IMG/VR virus record: IMGVR_UViG_3300037067_027643 | Coordinates: 160,001-224,000 of that record | Strand: one strand, 5' to 3' | Length of the DNA: 64,000 nucleotides | DNA from: a virus | Taxonomy: Duplodnaviria; Caudoviricetes | Shown here: positions 23,634-48,359 of the stretch, one piece after another | Layout of the letters: each line of letters starts with the position of its first letter | How positions within the stretch are numbered: the first letter of the stretch is position 1 | The notes under the pieces: generated by a model | Database searches by the model: none | What the model was told of the DNA's origin: nothing | What the model saw: only the letters and a program-made list of their open reading frames with translations | Program-made: the position numbers and the translations under genes

Positions 23634-23996
23634 ATGGAAACAGAAAACATTGAAAAAACAGAAGAAAAAAATGAAGGAGCTTTTTATAGTTCTTTAAAAA
23701 GAAACAATAAACAAATCAGAGACGATCGTGCATTAGCGATAGTTGATATTGCACAATTGAAGTACAAAAGAAAAGTTGAAGATTTAGAACTATCTATTAA
23801 AGACATGAAAAGAGAACAAGATAATATGCTTGATCTTTCTCCAACAAATTCTCAAAGTCTTATTATTGCTAGTGATTTTAATGCCGATGCTTATATTACA
23901 AAAGATTTAGAATTAGGAGTAAAAATCCGCAATGAAGAAATTAAATTTGAAATCGCAACTAAAAGATATGAATATTTATTTGGAGGAAACAAATAA
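23634..23996 (+). CDS. Coiled-coil hypothetical protein, first gene of the vWA/PurA-like operon
   Basis: Helical, charge-rich. Stop overlaps next start (TAATG). Confidence 0.7.
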   Translation: METENIEKTEEKNEGAFYSSLKRNNKQIRDDRALAIVDIAQLKYKRKVEDLELSIKDMKREQDNMLDLSPTNSQSLIIASDFNADAYITKDLELGVKIRNEEIKFEIATKRYEYLFGGNK

Positions 23997-24874
23997 TGGG
24001 GTATGGTAGTTATTCATTAAATGATAGATCTGTAAGAGCCGATAGTATGGGTTTTTATACTAAATCTATAAGCGAAGTATTTGAATCCAAAAATCTTAAT
24101 GAGAGTATGAATCCTAAAAATGTAACATTAAGGGAATCAAGAGATTCAAAAGAACATCCAAATAGTATAGCAATTATACTTGGATTAGATGTTACTGGAT
24201 CAATGGGATATATTCCTCAAGAACTTATTAAAGATGGCTTACCTACAATTATGGCAAATATTATTGAACATGGTAATCCAGATCCACAGGTAATGTTTCT
24301 TGCTATTGGAGATCATAAAGTTGATAGAGCGCCGTTACAAATATCACAGTTTGAATCAAATGATGAACTTCTCGATCATTGGTTGACAAAAACTTGGTTA
24401 GAAGGTGGAGGTGGCGGAAATGATGGAGAATCATATTCTCTAGCTCATTATTTTGCTGCTAAACATACTGTAATTGATTGTCTAGAAAAAAGAAATCAAA
24501 AAGGATTTTTATTTACTATTGGTGATGATAAACCACATACTCATTATTCTTCAGAAATATTAAAAAACTTGTTAGGTGATACTGATATTAAAAATAGCTA
24601 TAGTGATGTAGATCTATTAAAATTAGCTCAAGAAAAATATCATGTTTATCATATTCATGTAGGACCACAAGAAGCTAGTAATGGAGTTAAAAATAGATGG
24701 AAAGAATTACTTAATGAAAATTGTCTTATTGTTCCAAATTATAAAGATGTTGCAAAAACTATAGCAGAGACAGTAGTAGCTAATACAAGAACATCAGTAA
24801 AATCTACTTGGAATGATGATGTAATTGTAAATAAAGTAAAAGAAGAAACAAACGAAACTGATATTATTTTATGA
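23996..24874 (+). CDS. von Willebrand factor A (vWA) domain protein
   Basis: MIDAS-like LGLDVTGSMG, GGGGGNDGESY, FTIGDD. Confidence 0.85.
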   Translation: MGYGSYSLNDRSVRADSMGFYTKSISEVFESKNLNESMNPKNVTLRESRDSKEHPNSIAIILGLDVTGSMGYIPQELIKDGLPTIMANIIEHGNPDPQVMFLAIGDHKVDRAPLQISQFESNDELLDHWLTKTWLEGGGGGNDGESYSLAHYFAAKHTVIDCLEKRNQKGFLFTIGDDKPHTHYSSEILKNLLGDTDIKNSYSDVDLLKLAQEKYHVYHIHVGPQEASNGVKNRWKELLNENCLIVPNYKDVAKTIAETVVANTRTSVKSTWNDDVIVNKVKEETNETDIIL

Positions 24875-26004
24875 TTAATAAAGCAGTAATTGGATTAGGT
24901 TTTGGTGACGAAGGTAAGGGTATAACAACCGATTACCTTTGTTCCAATACCCAAAATTCAGTAGTTATAAGATATTCTGGAGGACAACAAGCTGGACATA
25001 CAGTTGTTGTTAATGGAATAAAACATGTATTTTCTAATTTTGGTTCTGGAACATTAAGAGGAGTTCCTACATATTGGTCTAAATTTTGTACTATAGATCC
25101 ATTTGGAATAGTAAATGAATTAAATATTTTACTTAAAAAAGGAATTAGTCCATTATTATATATAGACGAAAGATGTCCAGTAACTACACCATTTGATATT
25201 TATTATAATCAACAAACAGAACAAATTAATCAACATGGAAGTTGTGGGGTTGGAGTTGGATCGACTTTAAGAAGAGAGGAACATTATTACTCATTAACAT
25301 TTAAGGATTTATTTTATCCTTGGGTATTAACTACAAAATTAAATGCTATTAAACAATTTTATAATTTTAAAGAAGATGTATTAATAGATGAATTTTTAAA
25401 TAGAGTAAATATTGTAATTAATTCTCCTTATATTAAATCTATATTTGGCATTCCTGTATGTTGTAATAGAATATTTGAAGGATCACAAGGATTATTGTTA
25501 GATCAACATATTGGTTTTTTTCCTAATGTAACTAGATCAAATACCGGAACTAAAAATATATTAGAAATAGAAGATGAATCAATAGAAAAAAGTATTTATT
25601 CTACTCAAATTTATTTAGTTACAAGAGCTTATCAAACAAGACATGGGAATGGTCCAATTACAAATGAAAATATTCCAAATAATATTAAAATAAATGAACA
25701 TGAAACAAATAAACCTAATATGTATCAAGGATCTTTTAGACGTTCATTATTGGATTTAGATTTACTGGAATATGGAATTAATAAAGATGAATATATAAGT
25801 CAATACTGTAATAGTGAAAATTTAAATCTAGTAATTACATGCTTAGATTATGTTGAAAATGATTATCAATTTACATATAAAGGAGAAATAATAAGTTCAT
25901 TAAACGAGGGAGAATTTATTAATAAAATAAGTAAAATACTTAATATAAATAATGTATATATTAGTAAAACTAATGAATCTAAAAATATAATTAAATTTAA
26001 ATAA
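24871..26004 (+). CDS. Adenylosuccinate synthetase-like protein (divergent PurA family)
   Basis: GFGDEGKG, GGQQAGHTV, FEGSQGLLLD, PNVTRS, TRHGNGP. Canonical TTGRxRR loop absent. Confidence 0.85.
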   Translation: MINKAVIGLGFGDEGKGITTDYLCSNTQNSVVIRYSGGQQAGHTVVVNGIKHVFSNFGSGTLRGVPTYWSKFCTIDPFGIVNELNILLKKGISPLLYIDERCPVTTPFDIYYNQQTEQINQHGSCGVGVGSTLRREEHYYSLTFKDLFYPWVLTTKLNAIKQFYNFKEDVLIDEFLNRVNIVINSPYIKSIFGIPVCCNRIFEGSQGLLLDQHIGFFPNVTRSNTGTKNILEIEDESIEKSIYSTQIYLVTRAYQTRHGNGPITNENIPNNIKINEHETNKPNMYQGSFRRSLLDLDLLEYGINKDEYISQYCNSENLNLVITCLDYVENDYQFTYKGEIISSLNEGEFINKISKILNINNVYISKTNESKNIIKFK

Positions 26005-27408: not shown

Positions 27409-27786
27409 ATGATAGTGATTTTAGATTTTGATGGAACCGTTGTCAGTCATGAATTTCCTTTAATCGGTAATGATATAGGAGCTGTTCCTGTTTTAAAAAC
27501 TTTAATAAACAACGGTCATAAATTAGTATTATTCACAATGAGATGCAATAATTATCTAGAAGAAGCTGTACAATGGTTTAGAGTTAATGATATTCCTTTA
27601 TACGGAATCCAAACAAATCCAACTCAATCCAAGTGGACGAGTTCCCCGAAAGCACATGGGCAGCTGATTATTGATGATATTGCAGCTGGGTGTCCTTTGA
27701 AATATGATTCTAAAATATCAGAACAACCATTTGTTGATTGGGACAAAATGAAACAAATATTAATAAATACAGGATGGATAAATTAA
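27409..27786 (+). CDS. HAD-superfamily phosphatase
   Basis: LDFDGT, LFTMR, K..GQLIIDD. Confidence 0.85.
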   Translation: MIVILDFDGTVVSHEFPLIGNDIGAVPVLKTLINNGHKLVLFTMRCNNYLEEAVQWFRVNDIPLYGIQTNPTQSKWTSSPKAHGQLIIDDIAAGCPLKYDSKISEQPFVDWDKMKQILINTGWIN

Positions 27787-28125: not shown

Positions 28126-29430
28126 ATGAACATTATCCAAAAAGAAGAAACAATCAATTTTCAATTCGATAAAAATACAAATTTAAAAAGATTTTTGGAT
28201 AAGTTTAAAGACAAACAGATAGTAAGATTTTCGGTTGTAAAATCAAATAACCAATCGGATAAAATAATATGTGACTATGCAGTAGCGGAAAACATCTCTC
28301 ATCCAATTAAAAACATATTTGAATTTAATAAAAGACAATTTGTAAATAACAGTCAGTTTAATGCTGTAATGATTATTCCAACTGGTATTGGTGTAGAAGT
28401 TGGTGGAGATAGTGGTGATGGAAATGTAGCAGCTCGTTTAATAGGTTCGGTAGTAGATAATCTGATTACGCACCCAAACGTCGTAAATGCTGCCGATATA
28501 AATGAAATGACACCAAATACTTTATATGTAGAAGGAAGTGTATTAAATTGCTTTATATTAGGTAATATAGGGTTAAATAAAAGTAAAGGAAATAAAATAC
28601 TATTGTTATATGACAATTTAACACATGATGGAAGAGAAATAAATAATACTATAAAATCATGTTCTATTAATGCAGCTTCTAGTTTAAGAGTTACTTTGGG
28701 AAATAATATTGATGTATGTCCAATCGATCTTCCACCTAAATATGATTGTTACTTTAATGATAGAAATATGGCAGTTGGAACGGTTTATAATATTGAATAT
28801 TTAATTGATATAATTGATAAGTATAAAAATGATTACGATTGTTTTGCTCTCCATACTATTATGAACATGGAAGACAAAGATGTTTCATTTAAATATTTTA
28901 ATGAAGAAAGTATTGATGTTAATCCTTGGGGAGGACTGGAGGCAATGATATCACATACCATATCAAACATATTAGATATTCCTACAGCACATGCACCTAT
29001 GTTAGCAGATGGAACTTTTGATTATGAATATGGTATAGTAAATCCGACAAAGTGTCCAGAAACATTATCTAAAACGGAATTGTACTGTATTTTAAAAGGT
29101 TTATCATATTCACCAAAAATAATAACTGATAAAAATTTATTCAATAGAAATAGTGTATTAACAAATGAAGATATCAGTTGTTTAATTATTCCAGATAGAT
29201 GTATTAACCTACCTGTATTAGCAGCTTTAGAGCAAGATATACCTGTTATTACTATTAGTGATAATAAAAACATAATGGAAAATGATATAGATCTATTACC
29301 ATGGAAAGAAGGTAAATACTTCAAAGCTAAAAATTATTTAGAAGCAGTTGGATATATCGAATGTTTAAAACAAGGGATATCACCTTTTAATTTACAAAGA
29401 CCAATAAAAGCAACAAAAATTATTAACTAA
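28126..29430 (+). CDS. DUF3326-family protein
   Basis: IIPTGIGVEVGGDSGD, LITHPNVVNAA, LYVEG, PWGGLEAMISH, PTAHAP, CILKGL..SP, YLEAVG. Confidence 0.75.
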   Translation: MNIIQKEETINFQFDKNTNLKRFLDKFKDKQIVRFSVVKSNNQSDKIICDYAVAENISHPIKNIFEFNKRQFVNNSQFNAVMIIPTGIGVEVGGDSGDGNVAARLIGSVVDNLITHPNVVNAADINEMTPNTLYVEGSVLNCFILGNIGLNKSKGNKILLLYDNLTHDGREINNTIKSCSINAASSLRVTLGNNIDVCPIDLPPKYDCYFNDRNMAVGTVYNIEYLIDIIDKYKNDYDCFALHTIMNMEDKDVSFKYFNEESIDVNPWGGLEAMISHTISNILDIPTAHAPMLADGTFDYEYGIVNPTKCPETLSKTELYCILKGLSYSPKIITDKNLFNRNSVLTNEDISCLIIPDRCINLPVLAALEQDIPVITISDNKNIMENDIDLLPWKEGKYFKAKNYLEAVGYIECLKQGISPFNLQRPIKATKIIN

Positions 29431-29453
29431 CAGTAAACAAGGAATTAAACGTA

Positions 29454-30275
29454 ATGGAAAACAAATATAATGATTTAACTTCTTTGATAGAAGAATGGAG
29501 AAACTTAATTGATTGTGATGATGTTGAAAGAGACATCTGGGAGCGAAAACTTTTAGATTTTATTTATCCAATTAGATTTAAAGAGATTGATGAATTAGAT
29601 GAGTTAATATTTTTCATGAGAAACAATGATAAGAGTTGGAAGTTTTTACCCGGTAAACCATCATCTAGTAAGTATTTTGAAAAACAACACTTTAATAGTT
29701 TTATGGATTATTTTACTAGACGATTATCAACTGATACAACACAAAACATTCAAAATAAAATAATTAATTCATCATTAATAATACCTTGTGAATGTGATAT
29801 TGAATCAATTGGAAGTGTTATTGATACAAGCAAAATAATTAGACTTAAAAAGAATAGTGAAAATGTTGTAAATACACTTAAAAAATTAGGATTTAATAAT
29901 ATTGACAATTATGGATTTATTAACATGAAATTATTATTAACTTATTATCATAGAATTCATAGTCCTATTGATGGTATTGTTAAACAGATTATTCCTATAG
30001 AACAAGAAGATAACTTTTTTGGTGATAATTCTTTGTGGATTGTAGATATAGAAAACAAACAGTTTGGAAATGTTTATATGTTATTAGTAGGTGAAAGTTA
30101 TATACAAGATTTCTCTTTTAAAATTAAATTAGGAGACTGTATAAACAAATTTGATGAAATAGGAAATTTTAATTGGGGTAGTCAAACTGTAATGCTGTAT
30201 GATACGACTAAATTTAATAATAATATTTTAGCCAAAGAAAAAGAACATTATTTTGTGGGTGATTTTATTTTTTAA
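29454..30275 (+). CDS. Phosphatidylserine decarboxylase-like (pyruvoyl) protein
   Basis: FNSFMDYFTRRL, IIPCE, YYHRIHSPIDG, MLLVG, EIGNFNWGSQTVML (self-cleavage GS motif). Confidence 0.75.
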   Translation: MENKYNDLTSLIEEWRNLIDCDDVERDIWERKLLDFIYPIRFKEIDELDELIFFMRNNDKSWKFLPGKPSSSKYFEKQHFNSFMDYFTRRLSTDTTQNIQNKIINSSLIIPCECDIESIGSVIDTSKIIRLKKNSENVVNTLKKLGFNNIDNYGFINMKLLLTYYHRIHSPIDGIVKQIIPIEQEDNFFGDNSLWIVDIENKQFGNVYMLLVGESYIQDFSFKIKLGDCINKFDEIGNFNWGSQTVMLYDTTKFNNNILAKEKEHYFVGDFIF

Positions 30276-39141: not shown

Positions 39142-42100
39142 TTAATCTGTTATGTTTACAAAATGTAATATATCTGTTCCATCGTAATAATTTAATCTAA
39201 ATGTTCCATCACTTTTATTATAAATTGTACAATTATAAGCTCCATATACATAAGTTGCCGATGTAAAATCTATATTATTAGGACAATATTCAATATTATT
39301 TGATTGAAAACTATCTCCAATTATATTTGAATTAAAACCATCTCTAATATTATTTGATTGAAAACTATCCCCGATTGTATTTAAATAAAAACTACTTCTA
39401 ATATTATTTACAGAGAAGCTATTTCTAATATTATTTGAATAACAACCGTCTCCAATTATATTTGAATTAAAATACTCTCTAATATTATTTGATTGAAAAC
39501 TATTTCCGATTGTATTTGAATAGAAGCTATAACCAAATATATTTGTATTTCCAATTGTATTCGATTGAAAACTATCACCAATCGTATTCGATTGAAAACT
39601 ATCACCAATTACGTTTGATTGAAAAAGTCTTCCAATATTATTTGATTGAAAAGTATCACCAATTACATTTGAATAACAACTAATTCTAATTGTATTTGAA
39701 TAACAACTATCACCAATTGTAATAGTATAACCATCAGATTTAATATTATTTGAATAGCAAGTACTTCCAAAAACAATATTATTTAGTCTTGAATAGTATC
39801 CATTATTGTCAAAGCTAATTATATTAATATGATTATCATAACAATATTCATCGTAAGGTGTAAATGTATAATAATCTAATGGGTCACTCATTGATAGATT
39901 AGTTGTTGTAATATCACCGACACTAAATTCACTTGGTGTAGATGTCCAACTATAGTTTTTAAAATTATTTAACCAAAATTGCCAATTAACAGCATCGGAA
40001 CTAGGATCTGCAATTGATTCACTGTGAGTTGTTTTTGCTTTGTATAAATAATCATTACTTCCTGATACTATATCTTTAGCTGTATAACTACCGGATGAAA
40101 CCCATCCTGTAGCATTTACTTTCCATCTTCTAAAAATTATATTTCTAAAATCATAATAGCATTCATTATTTCGAATAGTATCCTTACGATATGTAATTAA
40201 TCCTTTGAATCCATTTACAGGCAATAATTCCGGAGTTATTAAATTCCAACTTGTTCCAGAAAACATATATGTATTTGTATTACTTGTAACATACGCATAT
40301 TCATTTATAGACGCAGATGCATAAGTCCAATTACTGCTAATATATGTTGTTATTTGATGTATATGAGTATTCCAAGGCGATGGAGATCCTGGTAATATTA
40401 CTACAGAATAACCTTCTGGTGGACCCAGTGGAATTGAATTATTAATATCATCAACTGTATAAGTTGGCGGAGGAACACCTACTCCAAAGAAAGCAATATC
40501 TCTTGTATCTCCACCAGTAATATCATAATAAATTGTATCTTGTGGATATACGGTAGAAATCGCAGTTTTATCAATAGAACCAGTCGATATAGAAAATACA
40601 ACTAACGGTTCAATACTTCCGGTATGTATGTCACTTGTAATTGTATTACCATCTAATATATTATGTACTGTTTGATAATCTGTTATTTTATAATGTTTTC
40701 CGGTTGTTAATGTTTGATTGTAAATTGATGAACTTAATTGAGAATATGTAATATTAATTAATTCGGAACTACTCATATCTAATTGATCAATTCTATAATC
40801 AAAACTACTGCTATCACTAACATAAGATTGCGAATATATATTAAAATCAGCACTCAATAAATAATTGCTCTGTGAAAGATATGTATTATTTATATTTGTA
40901 TTAAAAGAAGAACTATCTAAAGAGTAATTTGTTTCGAATGTATATAATGATTGTGAACTTGCAAAGCTGGATGTATTTAAAAATATCAATCCATTTTCTG
41001 CTGGGTTTACTTGTGGAATATAATTAGCACTTGAAGAATAACTATTAGGAACATCTAATAAATTTGTAAAATATGTAGATCCAGCACTACTTGATGGAGG
41101 TGATCCAATCCATTTACTACCAGAAACACTTAATACATATCCATTTGGATAAACACCTAAATCAATTACATTATTTAAATCTCCAAGATTAACAGGAATA
41201 CTGCTACTAAGATTAACATCGGTAATATAACAGCTTTGACTTAATAAATATACAGAACTCGATGTATTTAATTGAGTATTATAAAATGATGTTGATACAG
41301 AACTACTTAAATTGGTAACAGATGTATAAACACTACTTGATAAACTCGTTATATTACTATTAGTTGTATTTATTCTGCTGTTAAAGCTACTTGATATGTT
41401 GGTTTGATTTAATTCGTATGTATAGAAACTACTAGAATAAACATATTTAGTATCTTCAACAAATACTGTTTTATCACTTCCGGAATTAACCATCAAAAGA
41501 ACAGAATAATTTGGACTTTGTGACTTAACATCTAAATAACTAGTGGGGCAATCAGTTAATTCTAGTAATGTAGTTGCCCCACTTAAAGCACTACTTGTTA
41601 TATGTGATAAACTTTCAGAAAAACTAGAACTTAAATTATAAACAGTTGTATATTCACTTGCACTTAAATTATAAATTGAGGTATAAACACTCTGCGAATA
41701 AGAAGCAGTCCAGGTATTAACGCTTTCAGAATGAATATTTAAATAACCAATGTTTGTATTATTACTGGCTGTATATTGATTTATTAACTGTTCATAACTA
41801 TTAACAGATGATGTAAATTGATTAAATGTATTAGTATTGGCAAAGCTTGAAGTTGATATAAAATCTATTTTGGAACCACTTATCTGAAGTATTTTTCCAT
41901 CTTGTCCGGTATAAGAATTATTAGCAACATCATTTAAATTGATAAATGATAATAAAGTATTTAAACTTCCTGTTGATATGTTTTCCCAATTAAAGGTAGA
42001 AGAATTATAAGCTAGTAAATTGAAATTTCCAGGTGTGGTTATTGTAACATCTAAAAGATTTGGTAAATTATCTGCATAATAAGGTAATTGACTGTATGTA

Positions 42101-42261
42101 TGAACTCCGTCACCAATCTTAATCCTTACTGATTCGCTTGGATTTAAATATAAACTTGAACTATTATATTCTAAAACAAATTCACCTTGTGCTAATACCA
42201 TTGATCCACTATCTACCCAAGAAGCTATTGAATCACGTCTAATCTGAATTTGAGCATACAT
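39142..42261 (-). CDS. Mosaic tail fibre / receptor-binding protein
   Basis: Mtd_N-like N-terminus (IQIRRD..W..VLAQGE..KIGDG..LPY), Ser-rich shaft, DUF2793-like and CBM5/12-like segments, C-terminal 9-aa repeats. Confidence 0.75.
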   Translation of the reverse strand: MYAQIQIRRDSIASWVDSGSMVLAQGEFVLEYNSSSLYLNPSESVRIKIGDGVHTYSQLPYYADNLPNLLDVTITTPGNFNLLAYNSSTFNWENISTGSLNTLLSFINLNDVANNSYTGQDGKILQISGSKIDFISTSSFANTNTFNQFTSSVNSYEQLINQYTASNNTNIGYLNIHSESVNTWTASYSQSVYTSIYNLSASEYTTVYNLSSSFSESLSHITSSALSGATTLLELTDCPTSYLDVKSQSPNYSVLLMVNSGSDKTVFVEDTKYVYSSSFYTYELNQTNISSSFNSRINTTNSNITSLSSSVYTSVTNLSSSVSTSFYNTQLNTSSSVYLLSQSCYITDVNLSSSIPVNLGDLNNVIDLGVYPNGYVLSVSGSKWIGSPPSSSAGSTYFTNLLDVPNSYSSSANYIPQVNPAENGLIFLNTSSFASSQSLYTFETNYSLDSSSFNTNINNTYLSQSNYLLSADFNIYSQSYVSDSSSFDYRIDQLDMSSSELINITYSQLSSSIYNQTLTTGKHYKITDYQTVHNILDGNTITSDIHTGSIEPLVVFSISTGSIDKTAISTVYPQDTIYYDITGGDTRDIAFFGVGVPPPTYTVDDINNSIPLGPPEGYSVVILPGSPSPWNTHIHQITTYISSNWTYASASINEYAYVTSNTNTYMFSGTSWNLITPELLPVNGFKGLITYRKDTIRNNECYYDFRNIIFRRWKVNATGWVSSGSYTAKDIVSGSNDYLYKAKTTHSESIADPSSDAVNWQFWLNNFKNYSWTSTPSEFSVGDITTTNLSMSDPLDYYTFTPYDEYCYDNHINIISFDNNGYYSRLNNIVFGSTCYSNNIKSDGYTITIGDSCYSNTIRISCYSNVIGDTFQSNNIGRLFQSNVIGDSFQSNTIGDSFQSNTIGNTNIFGYSFYSNTIGNSFQSNNIREYFNSNIIGDGCYSNNIRNSFSVNNIRSSFYLNTIGDSFQSNNIRDGFNSNIIGDSFQSNNIEYCPNNIDFTSATYVYGAYNCTIYNKSDGTFRLNYYDGTDILHFVNITD
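39289..39760 (-). repeat. About 16 imperfect 27-bp coding repeats (FQSNxIGDS) forming a beta-solenoid
   Basis: Repeated ttgattgaaaactatc units, translated as (F/C)(Q/Y)SN(N/T/V)I(G/R)xx. Confidence 0.85.
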
Positions 42262-42354: not shown

Positions 42355-44172
42355 ATGGCAAAAAATATTCTAATTAGACATAATCCTCAGACATCAGATT
42401 GGGAACATTGGGAATCAGATAACGAATCTACTGGTTATTGGCTTCCTGGTTTATATGGAAAAATATTTACTCCGTTTGGAACATTTAAAAAAGATACTTA
42501 TATAACAGATGTTAAAAATGATAACGGAACAGTTAATATATTTGAATTTAATACTGGTATAGTTAATACAAATATTTCAAAAACAAATACTAATATTGAA
42601 AAATTAAAGAAAGTAAAAAATATAAATATTACTGAATTAATTGATACTCCAGAAGATAATAGTCAATATACTCCTGTTGTAATTAAATTTACTAATAGTC
42701 AAGAATTACAAGTTGTAAAAGATACCACGTTAAATTTATCAGTAACTGTTTATAATCCAGTACTAAATTCAATATTAAGATATACTTGGAATGCGGATGG
42801 TAATGTAGTAAAAGAAAATAGTACAGATAATACTTATAGTCAATTAATTGGTATAAATAATAATATTACTATATATAGTGAAATTACAAATGGTATAGAA
42901 AAAACAAAAACACCAGAAATTCAAATCAAACCAATTGATTTAAATAAAGATCCTTTATTTGGAAAGAACTTAATTAAAAATTTTGATGGAAGTATAGGAT
43001 TATCTAATTGGGTAACAGTTAGTGGTATTCCAAGAACAAATTCAAAGTGGAATCAACAAACTCAAGAAGGCAAAAGTGATGAAACAACAGCATTTAATGG
43101 TTCTACCGATTTTCCAAATGAATTAAGCAGAAATGATTTTAATGAAATAGGTCCCTATTATAAATCAATAATTTCTGATTGGAATTACAATAGTTTTTTT
43201 GAAGGTGGAATTGATAGTGTTTCTAACAAAACAGAAATGTATTATGATATAGATGTATCAAATGCTATAGATATAATCGATAAAAATGTTCAAAATGTTA
43301 ATACTGTAAGAGGACAACTTTTTGCTTATATGGGTGGAGATGGACAGATTAAATTTTATAATCAACCGACATTTGATGATATGTGGTTTCAATGGTGGTC
43401 ATTTGATAGAACGACTATAAGAATTGAATTATTGGATGAAAATAATAATATTTTGAATAGAGATTATTATATTTATAATCCAGCTCACAGTAGATACCGT
43501 CCATCATTATTTTTAAGAAACATTGATTTTTATATTCCTATAGGAACAAGAACAATTAGAGTTTGGCAAACGTATGAAAGATTTCATGATTATACAAGAA
43601 CAGCAGTAATTTATGGAACTAACGGTCAAACAAATTATAATAGAATTACACCTATTCCAGATAAAAATAGAGGATATGGTTTTGAAAACGAACAATTTGT
43701 ATTCAGACATTCTACAATGAATACATTGATAAATTTATTTTTATATGTAGATAATTATATAACTATAGATCAAAATAAAATAAAAACTGATTTTACAAAC
43801 TATAAAAAAATAATTAATAAATTTGATGAATCTGTTCCTTGGGGATATAATAGCAGCATGATAAGAGAAAAACAAAGTGTATATTCTTCGTTAAACGATA
43901 AGATTCAAGAATTAAGAAATGGTCAATTTGCTAATGATCAAATAATAAATATTATAAAAAGTGATAGTTGGTTTAAAACTATGTATTCTGAAAATGAAAT
44001 AAATAAATTAGTATATAATCAAGATTTAACAAACGAATACGATTATCGAGTAACATCAAAGAATACTTACTCTTGGAACGGAAAAGTTTTAGATTTATCA
44101 CCTAATGTAACTCAGATGAATCAAAATAATACTATTATAATTGAAGAACAGCCAATAACAACAATATCATAG
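42355..44172 (+). CDS. Putative virion structural protein (Ig-like plus carbohydrate-binding-like domains)
   Basis: LRYTWNADG Ig-like segment, KNLIKNFDG..W, IPIGTRTIRV. Late motif upstream. Confidence 0.55.
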   Translation: MAKNILIRHNPQTSDWEHWESDNESTGYWLPGLYGKIFTPFGTFKKDTYITDVKNDNGTVNIFEFNTGIVNTNISKTNTNIEKLKKVKNINITELIDTPEDNSQYTPVVIKFTNSQELQVVKDTTLNLSVTVYNPVLNSILRYTWNADGNVVKENSTDNTYSQLIGINNNITIYSEITNGIEKTKTPEIQIKPIDLNKDPLFGKNLIKNFDGSIGLSNWVTVSGIPRTNSKWNQQTQEGKSDETTAFNGSTDFPNELSRNDFNEIGPYYKSIISDWNYNSFFEGGIDSVSNKTEMYYDIDVSNAIDIIDKNVQNVNTVRGQLFAYMGGDGQIKFYNQPTFDDMWFQWWSFDRTTIRIELLDENNNILNRDYYIYNPAHSRYRPSLFLRNIDFYIPIGTRTIRVWQTYERFHDYTRTAVIYGTNGQTNYNRITPIPDKNRGYGFENEQFVFRHSTMNTLINLFLYVDNYITIDQNKIKTDFTNYKKIINKFDESVPWGYNSSMIREKQSVYSSLNDKIQELRNGQFANDQIINIIKSDSWFKTMYSENEINKLVYNQDLTNEYDYRVTSKNTYSWNGKVLDLSPNVTQMNQNNTIIIEEQPITTIS

Positions 44173-44174
44173 AG

Positions 44175-47100
44175 ATGAATAAAAACGATATTATACTAAA
44201 TAATTCATATCCAACTACACCAGATCTAAATTCAAATACTGGACAGATAAATTCTGCTATAATAAATAATTTAACTCAATCTAAAGCTAATTTATTAACT
44301 GTTTCTAATATTATTAATACTATAAGTGGAAATGAAAATTTAGAGTATCATGTTTATCAAAGTAATATTTTAGCAACTTCTATATATAATGGATTTGATT
44401 GGAATTTAGATAATACTAAAAAAACTAAACAAACTACATTAAATACAAATAGCCAAAGACATTTAAACGAACTTGGATTTAGTCAAGGACAATTTGATAT
44501 CACTTATAATGTATATAAAAAATTATTAGGTAGTCTAACAGAAACCACTTTAATTGTCGATGAAATATCTCAAACTAAAGAAGAAATAAGGTTAAAATTA
44601 TTTGATGTTTCCGTTGAAAATTTAAATCAGTTAAATAAAATTGGTAATTTACCCAAACAAGATATAAATGGTAATATAATAAATATTCAATTAAATTTTG
44701 GTACTAATAATATTTTTACCGCTGTTAATTGGAGAATGGATCCAAATATTGAAAATAGTATTGTATTTAAATTAATCAAACCTATTCCAGATACTGTATT
44801 TGTTGAAGTAAATAATTTAGCATTGGTATGTGTGCCTGTAATAGATCCTATAAATGTTACTGTTAATTTATTTACAAGTGAACCAGGGCAGGAAGCCGTA
44901 TTATTAAGGAATCCAAATTGGACAAGTCAATTTAATATTAAAAGTAAAAAAGAAACTGATTTTTATAATTGGGATACTTTACTTTCTACTAATTCTACAA
45001 GTTCTTATCAACTTATAAATAAGCATCTTAGTGGTAGCCTATCTGGAATTGATTTAAATATAGACCATTCTTCGTATAGTAATTTTGTATTTTATAGTTC
45101 AGCTGAACAACGTCTTAAAAATTTTTATTATAAACTCGGTTTGGTAGAAAATTATAACGGAGTTTTATCTACATTACATACACAATACTCTACTTCATTT
45201 GGAATAGATCAAGTTACTGTAAATAATAATATCGTTAAATATAATAATAGATTAAATAATTTATTCGGTACTTTTGATAATTACGAAAAATATTTATACT
45301 ATGAAAGTGGTTCATCTGTTGATATAGAATCTTCTACATGGCCAAAATCTAATACTACTTATCCTTATACATTATATTCAATAAATACTAATACAGCACA
45401 AGATTGGTACGAATCACAATTATATACTGCTTCTCTTTATGATGAAAATAATGTAAATAAATTAACCAATACAATTCCATACCACATTAGTTCAGATGAA
45501 AGTAATATTGGTTATGTTACATTTGTAGAAATGTTAGGTCAACACTTTGATATATTGTGGAGTTATGTAAATCATATGACATCTATTTATAATAGGAAAG
45601 AATCAATTTATGAAGGATTGTCAAAAGATTTAATTTATCATGTTCTTCAATCATTTGGATGGGAACCAGAATTTGGAAATCAATTTGAAGATTTATGGCT
45701 AAGTAGTTTTGGTGGTAATAAATATTCATCTTCACTATATATACAAGCAGAAGAAGAACAATCATATCCAACTCCATACGAGGATATTAGTAAACAAGTC
45801 TGGAAGAGAATATTAAATAATTTACCTTACTTATTAAAGAACAAAGGAACAGCGGAAGGTATAAGAGCTTTAATCTGTTGCTATGGAATTCCAGATACAA
45901 TATTAAGAGTTAAAGAATATGGCGGACCAGATAAATATACAGTTAAATCAAAATATAAATATAATAAATTTTATTACGCTTGGAATCCAACTGGATCAAG
46001 TGATTCTAATTTTTTAACTGTTAGTGGATCTACTTATCCAAATGGATTAGAGTTTAGATTTAAAACTAATGAAAATTTTAATGGTAATTTTATAGAACTA
46101 AGTAGAAGAGAACAAGTATTATTTACAAATTTAAGTGGATCTCTTGCACAATCACTTGGAAGGATTACTTATATAAATAATCAATTTGGAAACTTCGAAT
46201 TTTTAATTAAAGATACCATATTACCTACATATCACATTCATCAGATACAAAATATACCAATATTAGATGGAGCTTGGTGGAGTGTATTATTAAATATAAG
46301 TAATGAATATTCATGTTCCATGTTTGTAAAGAAAACAGAAAATGATAATGAATCAATTACACACGCTTATTCATCTAGTTTTATTTTAACTGATAGTGAA
46401 ACAGGAAGTTTAGATTATTGCTATATAAATTTTCCTGGTAATGTATCATCTTCTATACAACCAGCAACCTATGTATTTAATCAATTTAACGGAGAATTAC
46501 AAGAACTAAGATTTTGGTCTAGTTCATTAAATGAGTTATCTTTTAACAATCATGTACTTTCACCAATTTCATATAATAGTAATACAATAACATCTTCCTA
46601 CAATGATTTACTTTTTCATTTACCATTAGGAAACGATGTAAATTTAAAATATGACTTAATTACATTATATACTAATTCTGTTGATGTTTCTTACTATACA
46701 AGTTCCTCACATCCAAATCAAAATATTAATCTATACTCTGTAATTGCTCAACCATTAACAATGAGCTTTGTTCAACATACAGAACATTTTTCTACAGAAT
46801 GGCCAGATGTAAGTGCTAATAGAATTATATCAAATAAAATTAGAATAGAGGAAAATAATGCTTTTAGTGGTAATACATTAGATTTAAAACGTAGAAGTGA
46901 AATAAGTGCTAATGATTTATATCCAACAGATACAACTAAAATTGGAGTTTACCTATCACCAACAAATGAAATAAATGAAGATATTGCTAATCAGTTTGGT
47001 GGATTTAGAATTGATGATTATATCGGAGATGAAGAAGATTATTATACAGACGAATACGTAGATTTAATTGCTTTAAGAAATGAATACTTTAAAAAATATA

Positions 47101-48359
47101 ATGGAAGATTTAAAATAGCTGATTATGTAAAACTACTAAAATATTATGATAGTTCTTTATTTAATCAAATTAAAAAAATGGTTCCTGCAAGATCGAGATT
47201 GTTAACTGGATTAGTAATTGAACCATCCATATTAGAACGTCCTAAGATTAAAACAATAAGTAAACCTACTTATGAAGTATTAGAAAAATATGTTACCTTA
47301 AATGTTACATCAAGTAATCAATTAACAGGAACAATAAATAATCTAACATCTTCGTTTTCAACTAATATTTATCAATTAAGTAGTGATTATAATGAACTAA
47401 TATCTAATCCAATAGTACATACTGCTTCTTTAAGTGGAGATACGTTAAACTTAGAAACTACATTAGATTTTACTGATATGTATTTAATGAATTCTAGTAG
47501 TGTACTCAATACTGTTATAACCAGTTCTGTACAATCGAGTAGAAAACAAATCAAAACATTATACATTAGTAATACTGGATGGTTAGAAGGCTATACAGCA
47601 TATTCAATTCCATTTGTAAATGATTTATTAGTTGGACCAAATGCGTATGCAGAAAAACCTTGGTTAAATCCTAAATATGCTTGCGTAGATGATACTAATT
47701 ATTCTCAAATAGATACATCTCCTTCAAAATATGTTACTACCGCCTCTTATGAAACGAGTGAATTATTAAATGTAGGTGGTTATGGAATATCTAATCAAAT
47801 TAATTTTCAAGATGTACATTCTGTAAGAGGAATAAAACTCAATATTAAAAAACGTAGTGCTGATATAGATGTAAATAGACATACTACAGATTATATTGTA
47901 AAATTAAATCCTAATGGATTTGTCGATGAAAGTTTTATAAATAAACAAACTGGAATTAATAGAGCCGATATTAGTACATATTGGAAAGATGATGCTATAC
48001 CGACTAGTAGCTATTATGGAAGTCCGGAAGATAATTGGGGTTATCCTTCTATGTGGAATAAATTAAATGTAAGAACATTTTTTGTTGGAGTATCTTCTCT
48101 TAATTATTATTACAATGTATTTGATAATTTAAGACCTCAAGTTAATTGTATATTAGCGGATATTTATTTTAATAAAATACAATACAAAACAGCAGAGATA
48201 CAAGATTTTGAACCTACTGATTGGGCTAATCTAAAATATAATGGTTGTAAATTGGAAAGTGCTGGATTTAATCAATTAGCAAGTGATGGATTGCCAGTAG
48301 TTGATTTTTGGATAGTAAATAGTAATGAAACAACTGTTGAATCAGCTATTAAGGTTTGA
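44175..48359 (+). CDS. Large baseplate/tail-associated structural protein (LamG-like domain)
   Basis: FVFYSSAEQRLKNF, MLGQHFDILW, NNLPYLLKNKGT..I, FNGELQELRFW, VPARS..GLVIEP..LER motifs typical of large myovirus wedge proteins. Confidence 0.7.
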   Translation: MNKNDIILNNSYPTTPDLNSNTGQINSAIINNLTQSKANLLTVSNIINTISGNENLEYHVYQSNILATSIYNGFDWNLDNTKKTKQTTLNTNSQRHLNELGFSQGQFDITYNVYKKLLGSLTETTLIVDEISQTKEEIRLKLFDVSVENLNQLNKIGNLPKQDINGNIINIQLNFGTNNIFTAVNWRMDPNIENSIVFKLIKPIPDTVFVEVNNLALVCVPVIDPINVTVNLFTSEPGQEAVLLRNPNWTSQFNIKSKKETDFYNWDTLLSTNSTSSYQLINKHLSGSLSGIDLNIDHSSYSNFVFYSSAEQRLKNFYYKLGLVENYNGVLSTLHTQYSTSFGIDQVTVNNNIVKYNNRLNNLFGTFDNYEKYLYYESGSSVDIESSTWPKSNTTYPYTLYSINTNTAQDWYESQLYTASLYDENNVNKLTNTIPYHISSDESNIGYVTFVEMLGQHFDILWSYVNHMTSIYNRKESIYEGLSKDLIYHVLQSFGWEPEFGNQFEDLWLSSFGGNKYSSSLYIQAEEEQSYPTPYEDISKQVWKRILNNLPYLLKNKGTAEGIRALICCYGIPDTILRVKEYGGPDKYTVKSKYKYNKFYYAWNPTGSSDSNFLTVSGSTYPNGLEFRFKTNENFNGNFIELSRREQVLFTNLSGSLAQSLGRITYINNQFGNFEFLIKDTILPTYHIHQIQNIPILDGAWWSVLLNISNEYSCSMFVKKTENDNESITHAYSSSFILTDSETGSLDYCYINFPGNVSSSIQPATYVFNQFNGELQELRFWSSSLNELSFNNHVLSPISYNSNTITSSYNDLLFHLPLGNDVNLKYDLITLYTNSVDVSYYTSSSHPNQNINLYSVIAQPLTMSFVQHTEHFSTEWPDVSANRIISNKIRIEENNAFSGNTLDLKRRSEISANDLYPTDTTKIGVYLSPTNEINEDIANQFGGFRIDDYIGDEEDYYTDEYVDLIALRNEYFKKYNGRFKIADYVKLLKYYDSSLFNQIKKMVPARSRLLTGLVIEPSILERPKIKTISKPTYEVLEKYVTLNVTSSNQLTGTINNLTSSFSTNIYQLSSDYNELISNPIVHTASLSGDTLNLETTLDFTDMYLMNSSSVLNTVITSSVQSSRKQIKTLYISNTGWLEGYTAYSIPFVNDLLVGPNAYAEKPWLNPKYACVDDTNYSQIDTSPSKYVTTASYETSELLNVGGYGISNQINFQDVHSVRGIKLNIKKRSADIDVNRHTTDYIVKLNPNGFVDESFINKQTGINRADISTYWKDDAIPTSSYYGSPEDNWGYPSMWNKLNVRTFFVGVSSLNYYYNVFDNLRPQVNCILADIYFNKIQYKTAEIQDFEPTDWANLKYNGCKLESAGFNQLASDGLPVVDFWIVNSNETTVESAIKV

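What the first reader, a model, noticed from the sequence alone, without database searches (positions are those of the whole stretch)
23634..26004. Translationally coupled coiled-coil / vWA / divergent adenylosuccinate synthetase module
Seen: three overlapping genes (TAATG, ATGA). The PurA-like protein keeps the catalytic GDEGKG Asp and AGHT His but lacks the TTGRxRR aspartate-binding loop (it has ETNKPNMYQGSFRR instead). Known: true PurA needs that loop, PurZ has Ser in place of the Asp, and vWA MIDAS domains are metal-dependent protein-binding adaptors. Inference: this is not housekeeping AMP synthesis but a GTP-dependent ligase that may join a different amine, or a protein presented by the vWA subunit, to a purine nucleotide. 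It could be a nucleotide-modification or anti-defence system.
Basis: partly seen in the sequence, partly recalled or inferred. Interest (0 to 1): 0.72.

Follow-up and report, generated by a model that had tools for sequence, protein, structure and literature searches.

The report
Phage vWA plus PurA-like enzyme cassette
A giant phage carries a tightly packed three-gene cassette (a small helical protein, a metal-binding vWA protein and a re-tooled cousin of the AMP-synthesis enzyme PurA) that recurs in hundreds of phages and bacteria, is neither PurA nor PurZ, and makes a product that nobody has yet identified.

Summary
Three same-strand genes overlap (TAATG, ATGA) in a 286-kb, 25% GC myovirus from groundwater. 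They encode a 120-aa helical hairpin, a 292-aa vWA/MIDAS protein and a 377-aa PurA-family enzyme.

The enzyme keeps the GTP and 6-oxopurine-activating core. It has family-wide replacements at the aspartate loop, at three IMP-phosphate contacts and at the dimer arginine. It scores far below the curated PurA and PurZ cut-offs. It forms its own clade. In five bacterial genomes it sits beside a normal purA.

The vWA gene lies directly upstream in 121 of 122 loci with enough flank. This holds for Bxz1-like mycobacteriophages, Rhizobium and Vibrio phages, cable bacteria, Methylococcales and Bacteroidota. The helical protein is one of several interchangeable third partners; elsewhere a J-domain pseudokinase takes its place.

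Best reading: a vWA-bound, GTP-dependent purine-nucleotide ligase that uses a nucleophile other than free aspartate. Its product and role (nucleotide or NAD rescue, or a conflict effector) are unknown.

I found no paper describing it. This scan has already flagged the same module many times on other DNA, so this is another instance, here in the helical-protein variant.

The parts
23634..23996 (+). Accessory gene: 120-aa helical-hairpin protein ('cc'), the third partner in the type-1 form of the module
   Evidence: ORF. The AF2 model shows helices 16-24, 30-64 and 84-116, pLDDT 83. No Pfam, PHROG, PADLOC or NCBIfam hit and no fold match. It is 37-73% identical to the aligned homologues and lies directly upstream of the vWA gene in 48 IMG/VR and 29 bacterial loci. 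The family has 731 representatives at 50% identity with E<=0.001.
23994..23998 (+). TAATG junction: the cc stop overlaps the vWA start by 1 nt
   Evidence: Sequence read directly.
23996..24874 (+). vWA/MIDAS protein (292 aa), the obligate partner of the enzyme
   Evidence: AF2 pLDDT 91, pTM 0.88. Foldseek matches integrin beta-I, VWF A1/A3 and NorD at probability 1.00. phrog_2971, E 1e-38. Invariant in 56 homologues: M1, G2, R46, E47, D50, D65, T67, G68, M70, G105, D106, E145, D177.
24188..24202 (+). MIDAS motif D65-V-T67-G-S69 of the vWA protein
   Evidence: Alignment A2 shows D65, T67 and G68 invariant and S69 in at least 90% of sequences. The motif sits at the end of the first core strand of the model.
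23996..24016 (+). Invariant N-terminus of the vWA protein (M-G-x-[GAST]-x-[YW]-[SD])
   Evidence: All 56 aligned homologues, plus the Vibrio, Rhizobium and Rizal phage proteins at 31-39% identity, start with MG.
24871..24874 (+). ATGA junction: the vWA stop overlaps the start of the PurA-like gene by 4 nt
   Evidence: Sequence read directly. Across 116 loci the median vWA-to-PurA-like gap is 7 nt, and 67 loci have 20 nt or less.
24871..26004 (+). PurA-family enzyme (377 aa) of the vWA-linked clade
   Evidence: PF00709 E 2.4e-41. phrog_1211. Best PDB sequence matches are bacterial AdSS, E 1e-21 to 1e-24, and no PurZ chain appears at E<=0.001. NCBIfam PurA models give 118 bits against 402, and the PurZ model 41 against 300. 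It falls in a separate clade, SH-aLRT 95.
24904..24921 (+). P-loop GDEGKG (G12-G17) with the catalytic Asp13 and Lys16
   Evidence: Kept in 125 of 127 family members.
24991..25002 (+). AGHT (A41-T44) with the catalytic His43 (E. coli His41); preceded by the family-specific Gln40 (E. coli Asn38)
   Evidence: His is kept in 127/127 and Gln40 in 126/127. Inteins are inserted exactly after this His in homologues.
25702..25743 (+). Rewritten 'aspartate loop' E278-R291 (ETNKPNMYQGSFRR)
   Evidence: E. coli T300 becomes Y/W/F. T301 becomes Q in 127/127. R303 becomes variable (E/K/H/A/N/S). R304 becomes F/L/Q. One Arg/Lys is kept. The loop is one residue shorter.

Best explanation
The three genes form one translationally coupled cassette. 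Its conserved core is a complex, or at least a functional pair, of a MIDAS-bearing vWA protein and a third branch of the adenylosuccinate-synthetase superfamily.

The enzyme most likely still binds GTP and still phosphorylates the 6-oxo group of a purine nucleotide, as PurA does. That step is inferred from conserved residues. It then hands the activated purine to a nucleophile that is not free L-aspartate, giving an N6-substituted or simply aminated adenine nucleotide rather than adenylosuccinate. The identity of the nucleophile is unknown.

The vWA protein is an obligate partner that presents, regulates or assembles the enzyme. The 120-aa helical protein is an exchangeable accessory. In other lineages its position is taken by a J-domain pseudokinase, a Met/Gly-rich protein or an Nampt gene.

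Shown: the gene organisation, the conservation, the folds, the residue pattern and the paralogue status. Inferred: complex formation, GTP use, the altered nucleophile and any physiological role.
For: Gene organisation:
- The genes overlap.
- In 121 of 122 loci with at least 1.3 kb of upstream sequence, a vWA gene lies directly upstream on the same strand. The median gap is 7 nt.
- The pair co-occurs in about 200 Bxz1-like mycobacteriophages, 10 Rhizobium phages and 6 Vibrio phages.
- Flanking genes are not conserved.

Catalytic core kept in 127 family members: D13, K16, H41, Q224, T239, one loop Arg, D333 and S414. PurZ, which uses ATP, has lost D333.

Family-wide changes at substrate contacts:
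- N38 to Q (126/127)
- T129 to C (110/127)
- R143 to P/F/H/Y
- S240 to R (104/127)
- V273 to H (127/127)
- T300 to an aromatic residue
- T301 to Q (127/127)
- R303 variable
- K331 to C (125/127)
PMC8342488 states that R303 contacts both the IMP O2' and the aspartate substrate, and that the equivalent loop tip is strictly conserved between the two PurZ enzymes compared, S-2L and phiVC8.

Family placement:
- It scores below the curated PurA and PurZ cut-offs.
- It forms a separate clade with a branch length of 1.69.
- Five bacterial genomes hold a canonical PurA (545-601 bits) plus this paralogue (129-154 bits).

The vWA fold and MIDAS motif are confirmed.

Inteins sit at the catalytic His of homologues, which is typical of functionally important phage enzymes.
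Against: - There is no biochemical, structural or genetic datum for any member.
- Physical interaction of vWA with the enzyme rests only on gene adjacency. I found no genuine fusion; P0123 and P0127 look like frameshift or assembly artefacts.
- A conserved Arg/Lys and new invariant polar residues (Q286, H258, N283) could in principle rebuild an aspartate site.
- The loop alignment contains a one-residue indel, so the residue equivalences at 303-306 are not exact.
Confidence: 0.45

Rival explanations
1. It is a regulated conflict-system effector. The PurA-like enzyme depletes GTP or IMP through a futile 6-phosphoryl-IMP cycle, or makes a toxic or signalling nucleotide. The vWA protein plus the helical protein (or the J-domain pseudokinase) act as sensor and brake. 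Bacteria use it for defence, and phages for superinfection exclusion or counter-defence.
For: The module is a mobile three-gene cassette with unconserved flanks. It is shared by phages and by scattered bacteria that are mostly filamentous or multicellular: Electrothrix, Crenothrix, Saprospiraceae and Desulfamplus. In other lineages the accessory gene is a J-domain plus a kinase-like domain that lacks the catalytic Asp. vWA plus kinase pairs are typical of TerY-type signalling triads (own knowledge). In six Electrothrix loci a separate DnaJ-domain gene lies next to the module.
Against: None of the three proteins hits a PADLOC model. The bacterial contexts examined are ordinary chromosomal genes, not defence islands. 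The module is syntenic within Electrothrix and Dyadobacter, which suggests a stable cellular role. The pocket has its own invariant residues, which argues for a defined second substrate rather than a water-driven futile cycle.
Confidence: 0.2
2. It is a one-step or alternative-donor AMP-forming enzyme: IMP plus ammonia or another small amine, with GTP. It rebuilds adenine nucleotides, and indirectly NAD, when the pools collapse during infection or defence. It would work alongside Nampt and NMNAT-type salvage genes.
For: Nampt homologues lie immediately upstream of the vWA gene in L028 and L127, next to the module in L110, and 5.8 kb away in L027. A NUDIX family recurs in 8 loci. The Rhizobium phage module follows NMNAT/NUDIX and phosphoribosyltransferase genes. 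This phage carries an Nampt-like gene, but 30 kb away. It has no PurB of its own. The loss of the Asp-specific Arg fits a small nucleophile.
Against: This does not explain the obligate vWA partner or the third partner. NAD genes are adjacent in only a few per cent of loci. In this window none is adjacent. The three changed IMP 5'-phosphate contacts are not needed for a mere change of amine.
Confidence: 0.12
3. The amine is the vWA protein itself. After Met removal, its invariant N-terminal glycine attacks the 6-phosphoryl purine nucleotide, so the enzyme attaches a purine nucleotide through N6 to its partner.
For: Every vWA homologue starts with Met-Gly, including those at 31-39% identity. Glycine is aspartate without the side-chain carboxylate, which the lost Arg303 would have bound. 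The genes are translationally coupled, which suggests 1:1 production. vWA residue 6 (Y or W) and enzyme loop residue 285 (Y/F or W) differ together between the two main clades.
Against: The Y/W co-variation is clade-level, not a set of independent events, and has exceptions. An earlier check in this scan priced the idea at 14/100 because the N-terminus hardly varies. A conserved N-terminus can have many other reasons. A single-turnover substrate is an odd use of an enzyme.
Confidence: 0.1
4. It is an ordinary adenylosuccinate synthetase carried as an auxiliary metabolic gene to boost AMP synthesis, and the vWA gene is an unrelated neighbour.
For: It has the PF00709 fold, its catalytic residues are intact, and its best PDB sequence hits are bacterial AdSS. 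Databases and a 2025 preprint treat non-PurZ phage PF00709 genes as PurA.
Against: The aspartate loop, the IMP-phosphate contacts and the dimer Arg143 are replaced in the whole clade. It scores 118 bits against a cut-off of 402 on the PurA equivalog model. Carrier bacteria keep a canonical purA as well. The vWA linkage holds in 121/122 loci.
Confidence: 0.08
5. It is a PurZ-type enzyme that makes the precursor of 2-aminoadenine (Z) DNA.
For: It is phage-borne and PF00709-positive, and PHROG labels the family with the PurZ-derived name.
Against: Asp13 is kept where PurZ has Ser. D333 is kept where PurZ has Asn. The PurZ NCBIfam model gives 41 bits against 300. phiVC8 PurZ lies far outside the clade. 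No PurZ PDB chain matches. The module also occurs in bacterial chromosomes.
Confidence: 0.02

Closest known systems
Adenylosuccinate synthetase PurA (EC 6.3.4.4; PF00709; E. coli 1ADE/1CG0)
   Same: It has the same fold over the whole length. It keeps the P-loop GDEGKG with Asp13 and Lys16, the catalytic His41, Gln224, Thr239 and the guanine-reading Asp333. It therefore probably shares the first half-reaction, GTP-dependent phosphorylation of a 6-oxopurine.
   Different: The aspartate loop is rewritten (T300/T301/R303/R304) and one residue shorter. The IMP 5'-phosphate contacts N38 and T129 and the trans-subunit R143 are replaced. V273 is an invariant His and K331 an invariant Cys. The protein is about 55 aa shorter. 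It scores far below the curated cut-offs. It is always paired with a vWA gene. In bacteria it is a second copy beside the real purA.
PurZ (N6-succino-2-amino-2'-deoxyadenylate synthase of Z-genome phages; NF038379; phiVC8 6FM1, S-2L)
   Same: Both are phage-borne, short members of the same superfamily with altered substrate choice.
   Different: PurZ has Ser at the Asp13 position, keeps the Thr-rich aspartate loop, has lost Asp333 (it uses ATP) and travels with DatZ and MazZ. The present enzyme has none of these features, and the two are very distant in the tree.
TerY-P-type triads (vWA protein + Ser/Thr kinase + PP2C phosphatase; Anantharaman, Iyer and Aravind 2012, cited from my own knowledge)
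   Same: In the sister form of the module, a vWA/MIDAS protein is genetically coupled to a kinase-fold protein, in mobile cassettes of bacteria and phages.
   Different: This window has no kinase and no PP2C; a 120-aa helical protein takes that place. Where a kinase fold is present it lacks the catalytic Asp and carries a J-domain. No Ter-type system contains a PurA-family enzyme.
MoxR-vWA remodelling pairs (CbbQ-CbbO, NorQ-NorD, RavA-ViaA)
   Same: A MIDAS vWA protein acts as an adaptor for one specific enzyme; NorD is among the fold matches. In the sister form, a chaperone-recruiting J-domain could play the part of the AAA+ motor.
   Different: No AAA+ ATPase is encoded in or near the module. 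The client would be a nucleotide ligase. This is an analogy only.
Phage NAD+ reconstitution genes (NARP2-type Nampt + NMNAT/NUDIX)
   Same: They are occasionally adjacent to the module (L028, L110, L127, Rhizobium phages). This phage has an Nampt-like gene.
   Different: They are not adjacent here (30 kb away) and there is no sequence relationship. The link is a neighbourhood hint seen in a small minority of loci.

Membership tests
PurA (adenylosuccinate synthetase, EC 6.3.4.4) | PF00709 fold with the P-loop GDEGKG (Asp13, Lys16), His41 and Gln224 | tested here: met
   PF00709 E 2.4e-41. The residues are kept in 125-127 of 127 family members.
PurA (adenylosuccinate synthetase, EC 6.3.4.4) | L-aspartate loop G-x-T-T-G-R-x-R-R with Thr301 and Arg303 | tested here: not met
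   The window has Y-Q-G-S-F-R-R. In the family T301 is Q in 127/127, R303 is variable, and the loop is one residue shorter.
PurA (adenylosuccinate synthetase, EC 6.3.4.4) | IMP 5'-phosphate contacts Asn38, Thr129, Thr239 and Arg143 from the second subunit | tested here: not met
   N38 is Q, T129 is C and R143 is Y (P/F/H/Y in the family). Only T239 is kept. The residue roles come from my own knowledge of the E. coli structures.
PurA (adenylosuccinate synthetase, EC 6.3.4.4) | Score above the curated equivalog cut-offs (NF002223, TIGR00184) | tested here: not met
   118.5 bits against 402, and 103.1 against 395.55.
PurA (adenylosuccinate synthetase, EC 6.3.4.4) | It is the genome's AMP-branch enzyme (single copy, catalyses IMP + Asp + GTP) | tested here: not met
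   Five carrier bacteria each have a canonical PurA (545-601 bits) plus this paralogue (129-154 bits). Catalysis itself cannot be tested with these tools.
PurZ | Ser in place of the catalytic Asp13 | tested here: not met
   The window has GDEGKG; phiVC8 PurZ has GSTGKG.
PurZ | ATP-type donor pocket (Asp333 lost) and a score above the NF038379 cut-off | tested here: not met
   D333 is kept in 124/127. The score is 41.2 bits against 300.
PurZ | Z-cluster neighbours DatZ and MazZ | not tested
   Neither is seen among the ORFs flanking the module. I did not search the whole genome for HD or MazG families.
vWA / MIDAS domain proteins | Rossmann-like vWA fold | tested here: met
   AF2 pLDDT 91. Foldseek probability 1.00 to integrin I and beta-I domains, VWF A1/A3 and NorD.
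vWA / MIDAS domain proteins | MIDAS residues D-x-S/T-x-S plus a downstream Thr and Asp | tested here: inconclusive
   D65-x-T67-x-S69 and D177 are invariant or nearly so. The usual Thr position appears to be taken by E145/S146. I could not inspect coordinates.
vWA / MIDAS domain proteins | Match to Pfam vWA models or to any solved vWA by sequence | tested here: not met
   No Pfam hit at E<0.01. No PDB chain at E<=1 with a 56-sequence profile. Membership rests on fold only.
TerY-P triad | vWA protein plus an active Ser/Thr kinase plus a PP2C phosphatase | tested here: not met
   No kinase or PP2C lies in or beside the cassette. In sister loci the kinase fold lacks the catalytic Asp: H-x-G-I-x-P-E-S, or HGAITPDN in Rizal.
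J-domain pseudokinase / vWA / PurA-like module (the form described by earlier reports of this scan) | J-domain (HPD) plus a kinase-like gene directly upstream of the vWA gene | tested here: not met
   In this window the upstream gene is the 120-aa helical protein. Profile comparison finds no homology to the J-pseudokinase family (hhalign probability 0.4%). No DnaJ domain is found anywhere in the phage genome. The vWA and PurA-like core is shared.
Known anti-phage defence systems (PADLOC 2.0) | A match of any component to a PADLOC model | tested here: not met
   No hit at E<=0.1 for cc, vWA or PurA-like, from the window or from Dyadobacter.

The most novel reading that the evidence does not exclude
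The enzyme uses its partner as substrate. It activates a 6-oxopurine nucleotide with GTP and couples it through N6 to the invariant N-terminal glycine of the vWA protein. This would create a protein-nucleotide conjugate of a kind not described before, and the vWA/MIDAS domain and the exchangeable third partner would then deliver or read it.
Probability: 0.1. Interest if true: 0.9.

Novelty: new variant of a known kind. Interest (0 to 1): 0.6.

Why it matters
Only two chemistries are known for the adenylosuccinate-synthetase fold: PurA for AMP and PurZ for the Z base.

This is a third, large and coherent branch. Its substrate pocket is rebuilt and it has an obligate vWA partner. It is present in hundreds of large phages, including the heavily studied Bxz1-like mycobacteriophages, where it is annotated simply as 'PurA-like'. 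It is also present in cable bacteria, methanotrophs and Bacteroidota.

Databases currently name it adenylosuccinate synthase or, wrongly, a PurZ-type enzyme. Working out its product would add a new nucleotide-ligase reaction. It would also show whether the module serves nucleotide or NAD rescue, a conflict function, or a protein-nucleotide modification. Tractable test systems exist: M. smegmatis phages and cultured Dyadobacter and Neolewinella.

Tried and rejected
I took contexts from the search for related loci and the genome search instead.
- Literature searches found no description of the module: adenylosuccinate synthetase + phage + von Willebrand; PurA-like + phage; adenylosuccinate synth + vWA; + jumbo phage; Arg303/Asn38.
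- The helical protein gave nothing. It has no family hit. The ESM Atlas scores of 0.79 or less are below the chance level. There is no Foldseek match at E<=0.001.
- hhalign of the helical protein against the J-pseudokinase family gave probability 0.4%. The short similarity of EIKLEIAxxRYxYLFGG to the kinase alpha-F region is chance.
- The search for fusions was negative. P0123 (vWA + PurA-like) has a junk-like Arg/Gly linker typical of a frameshift. P0127 (cc + vWA) has an internal deletion and a duplicated segment. Long cc-containing proteins carry unrelated HNH or chimeric N-termini. None counts as a Rosetta-stone fusion.
- The promoter and terminator scan is uninformative in 25% GC DNA: 29 promoter-like sites against 34 expected, and no terminator.
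- No RNA holder is listed for the stretch.
- The TROVE/Ro link occurs in 8 loci but is absent from this phage, so I did not pursue it.
- The careful ML tree did not finish. I used the quick IQ-TREE result. No archaeal PurA was included.
- I could not model the enzyme or any complex because the two fold jobs went to the partners.
Full report
**What is there**

The window is bases 160001-224000 of a 285,744-bp, 25% GC virus record. It encodes a tail sheath and a baseplate wedge, so it is a giant myovirus. Its DNA occurs in a groundwater metagenome, and a near-identical copy occurs in a landfill metagenome.

They are joined by TAATG and ATGA overlaps.

**The enzyme**

The 377-aa protein matches Pfam Adenylsucc_synt (E 2.4e-41), but only over profile positions 1-313 of 416. 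Its best matches among solved structures are bacterial adenylosuccinate synthetases (E 1e-21 to 1e-24). Archaeal PurA matches weakly, and no PurZ chain appears.

I aligned 127 members of its family from IMG/VR and GTDB loci with E. coli PurA.

- The machinery for the first half-reaction is intact: G12-D13-E14-G15-K16-G17, H41, Q224, T239, the guanine-reading D333 and S414 are all kept.
- Positions that hold IMP's 5'-phosphate and the aspartate are changed in the same way throughout the family: N38 to Q (126/127), T129 to C (110), R131 to V/L, the trans-subunit R143 to P/F/H/Y, S240 to R (104), V273 to H (127/127), T300 to Y/W/F, T301 to Q (127/127), R303 to anything, R304 to F/L/Q, and K331 to C (125).
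- The loop is also one residue shorter.

The roles of these E. coli residues are from my own knowledge of the Honzatko and Fromm structures. PMC8342488 confirms that R303 contacts both the O2' of IMP and the aspartate, and that the equivalent loop tip is strictly conserved between the two PurZ enzymes it compares, S-2L and phiVC8.

Curated NCBIfam models place the protein far below both families: PurA 118.5 bits against a cut-off of 402, and PurZ 41.2 against 300. phiVC8 PurZ has Ser for D13 and Asn for D333, and the present family has neither change.

A quick maximum-likelihood tree puts all 40 vWA-linked sequences in one clade (SH-aLRT 95). These include the Mycobacterium, Rhizobium and Vibrio phage proteins. 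The clade sits on a branch of length 1.69 away from six canonical PurAs, and PurZ lies far outside. The careful search did not finish and no archaeal PurA was included.

Five bacterial genomes that carry the gene each also have a full-length canonical PurA (545-601 bits), against 129-154 bits for the paralogue. So the gene is not the housekeeping enzyme and is not PurZ.

**The vWA partner**

The 292-aa protein has no Pfam hit and no sequence match to any PDB chain, even as a 56-sequence profile. It folds with pLDDT 91 into a vWA domain. Foldseek gives probability 1.00 to integrin I and beta-I domains, VWF A1/A3 and NorD. It carries an invariant D65-x-T67-G68-S69 plus D177.

About 55 residues precede the domain. 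This extension is itself highly conserved (RESRDSxEHPNS). Every homologue begins Met-Gly, including those at 31-39% identity in cultured phages.

**The third gene**

The 120-aa protein models as a helical hairpin. It has no recognisable relatives of known function.

It is nevertheless well conserved, at 37-73% identity to the aligned homologues. It forms a family of 731 cluster representatives. Proteins in which it appears fused to something else look like HNH-gene read-throughs or chimeras.

**Linkage**

tblastn in cultured phages finds the vWA and PurA-like genes together in about 200 Bxz1-like mycobacteriophages, 10 Rhizobium phages and 6 Vibrio phages.

| Collection | Loci examined | vWA gene upstream | cc gene before vWA |
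|---|---|---|---|
| IMG/VR | 57 | 54 | 48 |
| GTDB genomes | 80 | 75 | 29 |

In IMG/VR, the three loci without vWA are two truncated contigs and one gene fragment.

Over all loci with at least 1.3 kb of upstream sequence, the vWA gene is directly upstream on the same strand in 121 of 122. The median gap is 7 nt (corrected). Flanking genes are not conserved.

The bacterial carriers are cable bacteria (every Electrothrix and Electronema genome returned), Methylococcales/Crenothrix, Desulfamplus, Saprospiraceae/Lewinellaceae, Dyadobacter isolates and some Patescibacteria. The contexts I checked are ordinary chromosomal genes. They are syntenic within Electrothrix and within Dyadobacter. The module is therefore not only a phage gene set.

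**Alternative third partners**

In 26 bacterial loci and in mycobacteriophage Rizal (gp250), the gene before vWA is not the helical protein. It is a protein of about 290 aa in bacteria (376 aa in Rizal) with two parts:

- The N-terminus is a J-domain. The HPD motif is invariant, and 15 of 19 members hit PF00226.
- The rest is kinase-like but lacks the catalytic Asp: H-x-G-I-x-P-E-S, or HGAITPDN in Rizal.

Profile comparison finds no homology between this protein and the helical protein.

The Vibrio and Rhizobium phages use yet another upstream protein, which has a Met/Gly-rich tail. In L028 and L127 an Nampt gene sits directly before vWA.

The window's phage has no J-domain, PurB, TROVE or NUDIX match by Pfam. 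It has an Nampt-like gene 30 kb away.

**Interpretation**

The invariant core is vWA plus the PurA-like enzyme. The conserved residues argue that the enzyme still uses GTP to phosphorylate the O6 of a purine nucleotide. The systematic replacement of the aspartate loop argues that the second substrate is not free L-aspartate.

Loss of the trans-subunit Arg143 and of two other phosphate contacts suggests that the nucleotide is held differently. It also suggests that the homodimer-built site of PurA is no longer used, which would fit a heteromeric enzyme. These are inferences; nothing has been measured for any member.

I put 0.45 on this general reading and spread the rest as follows:

| Reading | Confidence |
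|---|---|
| Regulated conflict effector | 0.20 |
| Small-amine AMP-forming enzyme tied to adenine or NAD rescue | 0.12 |
| vWA's own N-terminal glycine as acceptor | 0.10 |
| Ordinary PurA | 0.08 |
| PurZ | 0.02 |

The glycine idea is attractive because Met-Gly is invariant. Also, vWA residue 6 (Y or W) tracks enzyme loop residue 285 (Y/F or W). But that co-variation is between two clades, not repeated events. An earlier check in this scan priced the idea at 14/100, and I lowered my estimate accordingly.

**Novelty**

I found no paper that describes the module. A 2025 preprint groups non-PurZ phage PF00709 genes with PurA and shows that such contigs are not Z-modified.

This scan has already reported the same module many times on other DNA, in both the J-pseudokinase and the helical-protein forms. 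My independent tests agree with those reports. They add the following for this instance:

- the residue census;
- the paralogue check;
- the tree;
- the three alternative partner architectures;
- the intein after the catalytic His, read in P0121;
- the family size of the helical protein.

Noticed in passing
P0121, P0122, P0124, P0125 (homologues of window 24871-26004): PurA-like genes of 800-830 aa carry an intein (PF14890 + LAGLIDADG PF14528). In P0121, the only one whose sequence I read, it is inserted right after the catalytic His of AGH|T. HNH endonuclease genes are also often adjacent to, or mis-fused with, the cc gene. The module is a hotspot for homing elements.
   Followed up: partly
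window 28126-30275: A DUF3326 protein (434 aa, E 9e-72) is followed 24 nt later by a phosphatidylserine-decarboxylase-like protein (273 aa, E 5e-17). This is an unusual pair for a phage, and neither has a PHROG match.
   Followed up: no
window 27409-27786; L019:7245-7715: A small protein (125 aa; phrog_1238, labelled 'phosphoheptose isomerase'; no Pfam hit) lies 1.4 kb downstream of the module. A 45%-identical homologue lies directly after the PurA-like gene in another giant-phage contig.
   Followed up: partly
G000:C1:153108-153977 (outside the window, 30 kb upstream of the module): The phage encodes an Nampt/NAPRTase-family protein (497-aa frame, E 7e-39). Homologues of it sit immediately upstream of the vWA gene in L028 and L127 and next to the module in L110.
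   Followed up: partly
L001:4036-4749 and L008:2777-3568: The Vibrio phiKT1024-type and Rhizobium Y65-type phages share a different upstream partner. It is a 240-260-aa protein with a conserved N-terminal region (FRKVDGVVWDMM...) and a Met/Gly-rich tail. They also have a small extra ORF near the vWA gene. This would be a third architecture of the module.
   Followed up: no
L007:3965-5020 (Mycobacterium phage Rizal gp251): The annotated GTG start is probably 12 codons too far upstream. A Shine-Dalgarno sequence (AAGGAG) precedes the ATG at L007:4001, which gives the family's invariant MG N-terminus.
   Followed up: partly
L070 (Ca. Electrothrix aarhusensis), L087, L058: The module shows signs of decay or exceptions. 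In L070 the vWA match is truncated and cc is a 22-codon remnant. L087 has 2.3 kb upstream of the PurA-like gene with no vWA match. L058 holds only a C-terminal fragment of the PurA-like gene.
   Followed up: no
L070:10090-11679 (-) and five other Electrothrix loci: A 529-aa DnaJ-domain protein (E 6.5e-13) and a TPR protein lie convergently, right after the PurA-like gene, in six cable-bacterium loci. This echoes the J-domain of the pseudokinase form of the module.
   Followed up: partly
L001, L010, L011, L013, L024, L025, L028, L045: TROVE (Ro60-like) proteins are encoded within a few kb of the module in eight phage loci. The window's phage has none.
   Followed up: partly
window 39142-42261 (-), 42355-44172 (+), 44175-48359 (+): Three large ORFs (1039, 605 and 1394 aa) have no PHROG match at E<=1e-5. 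They lie near the tail and baseplate genes of this myovirus.
   Followed up: no
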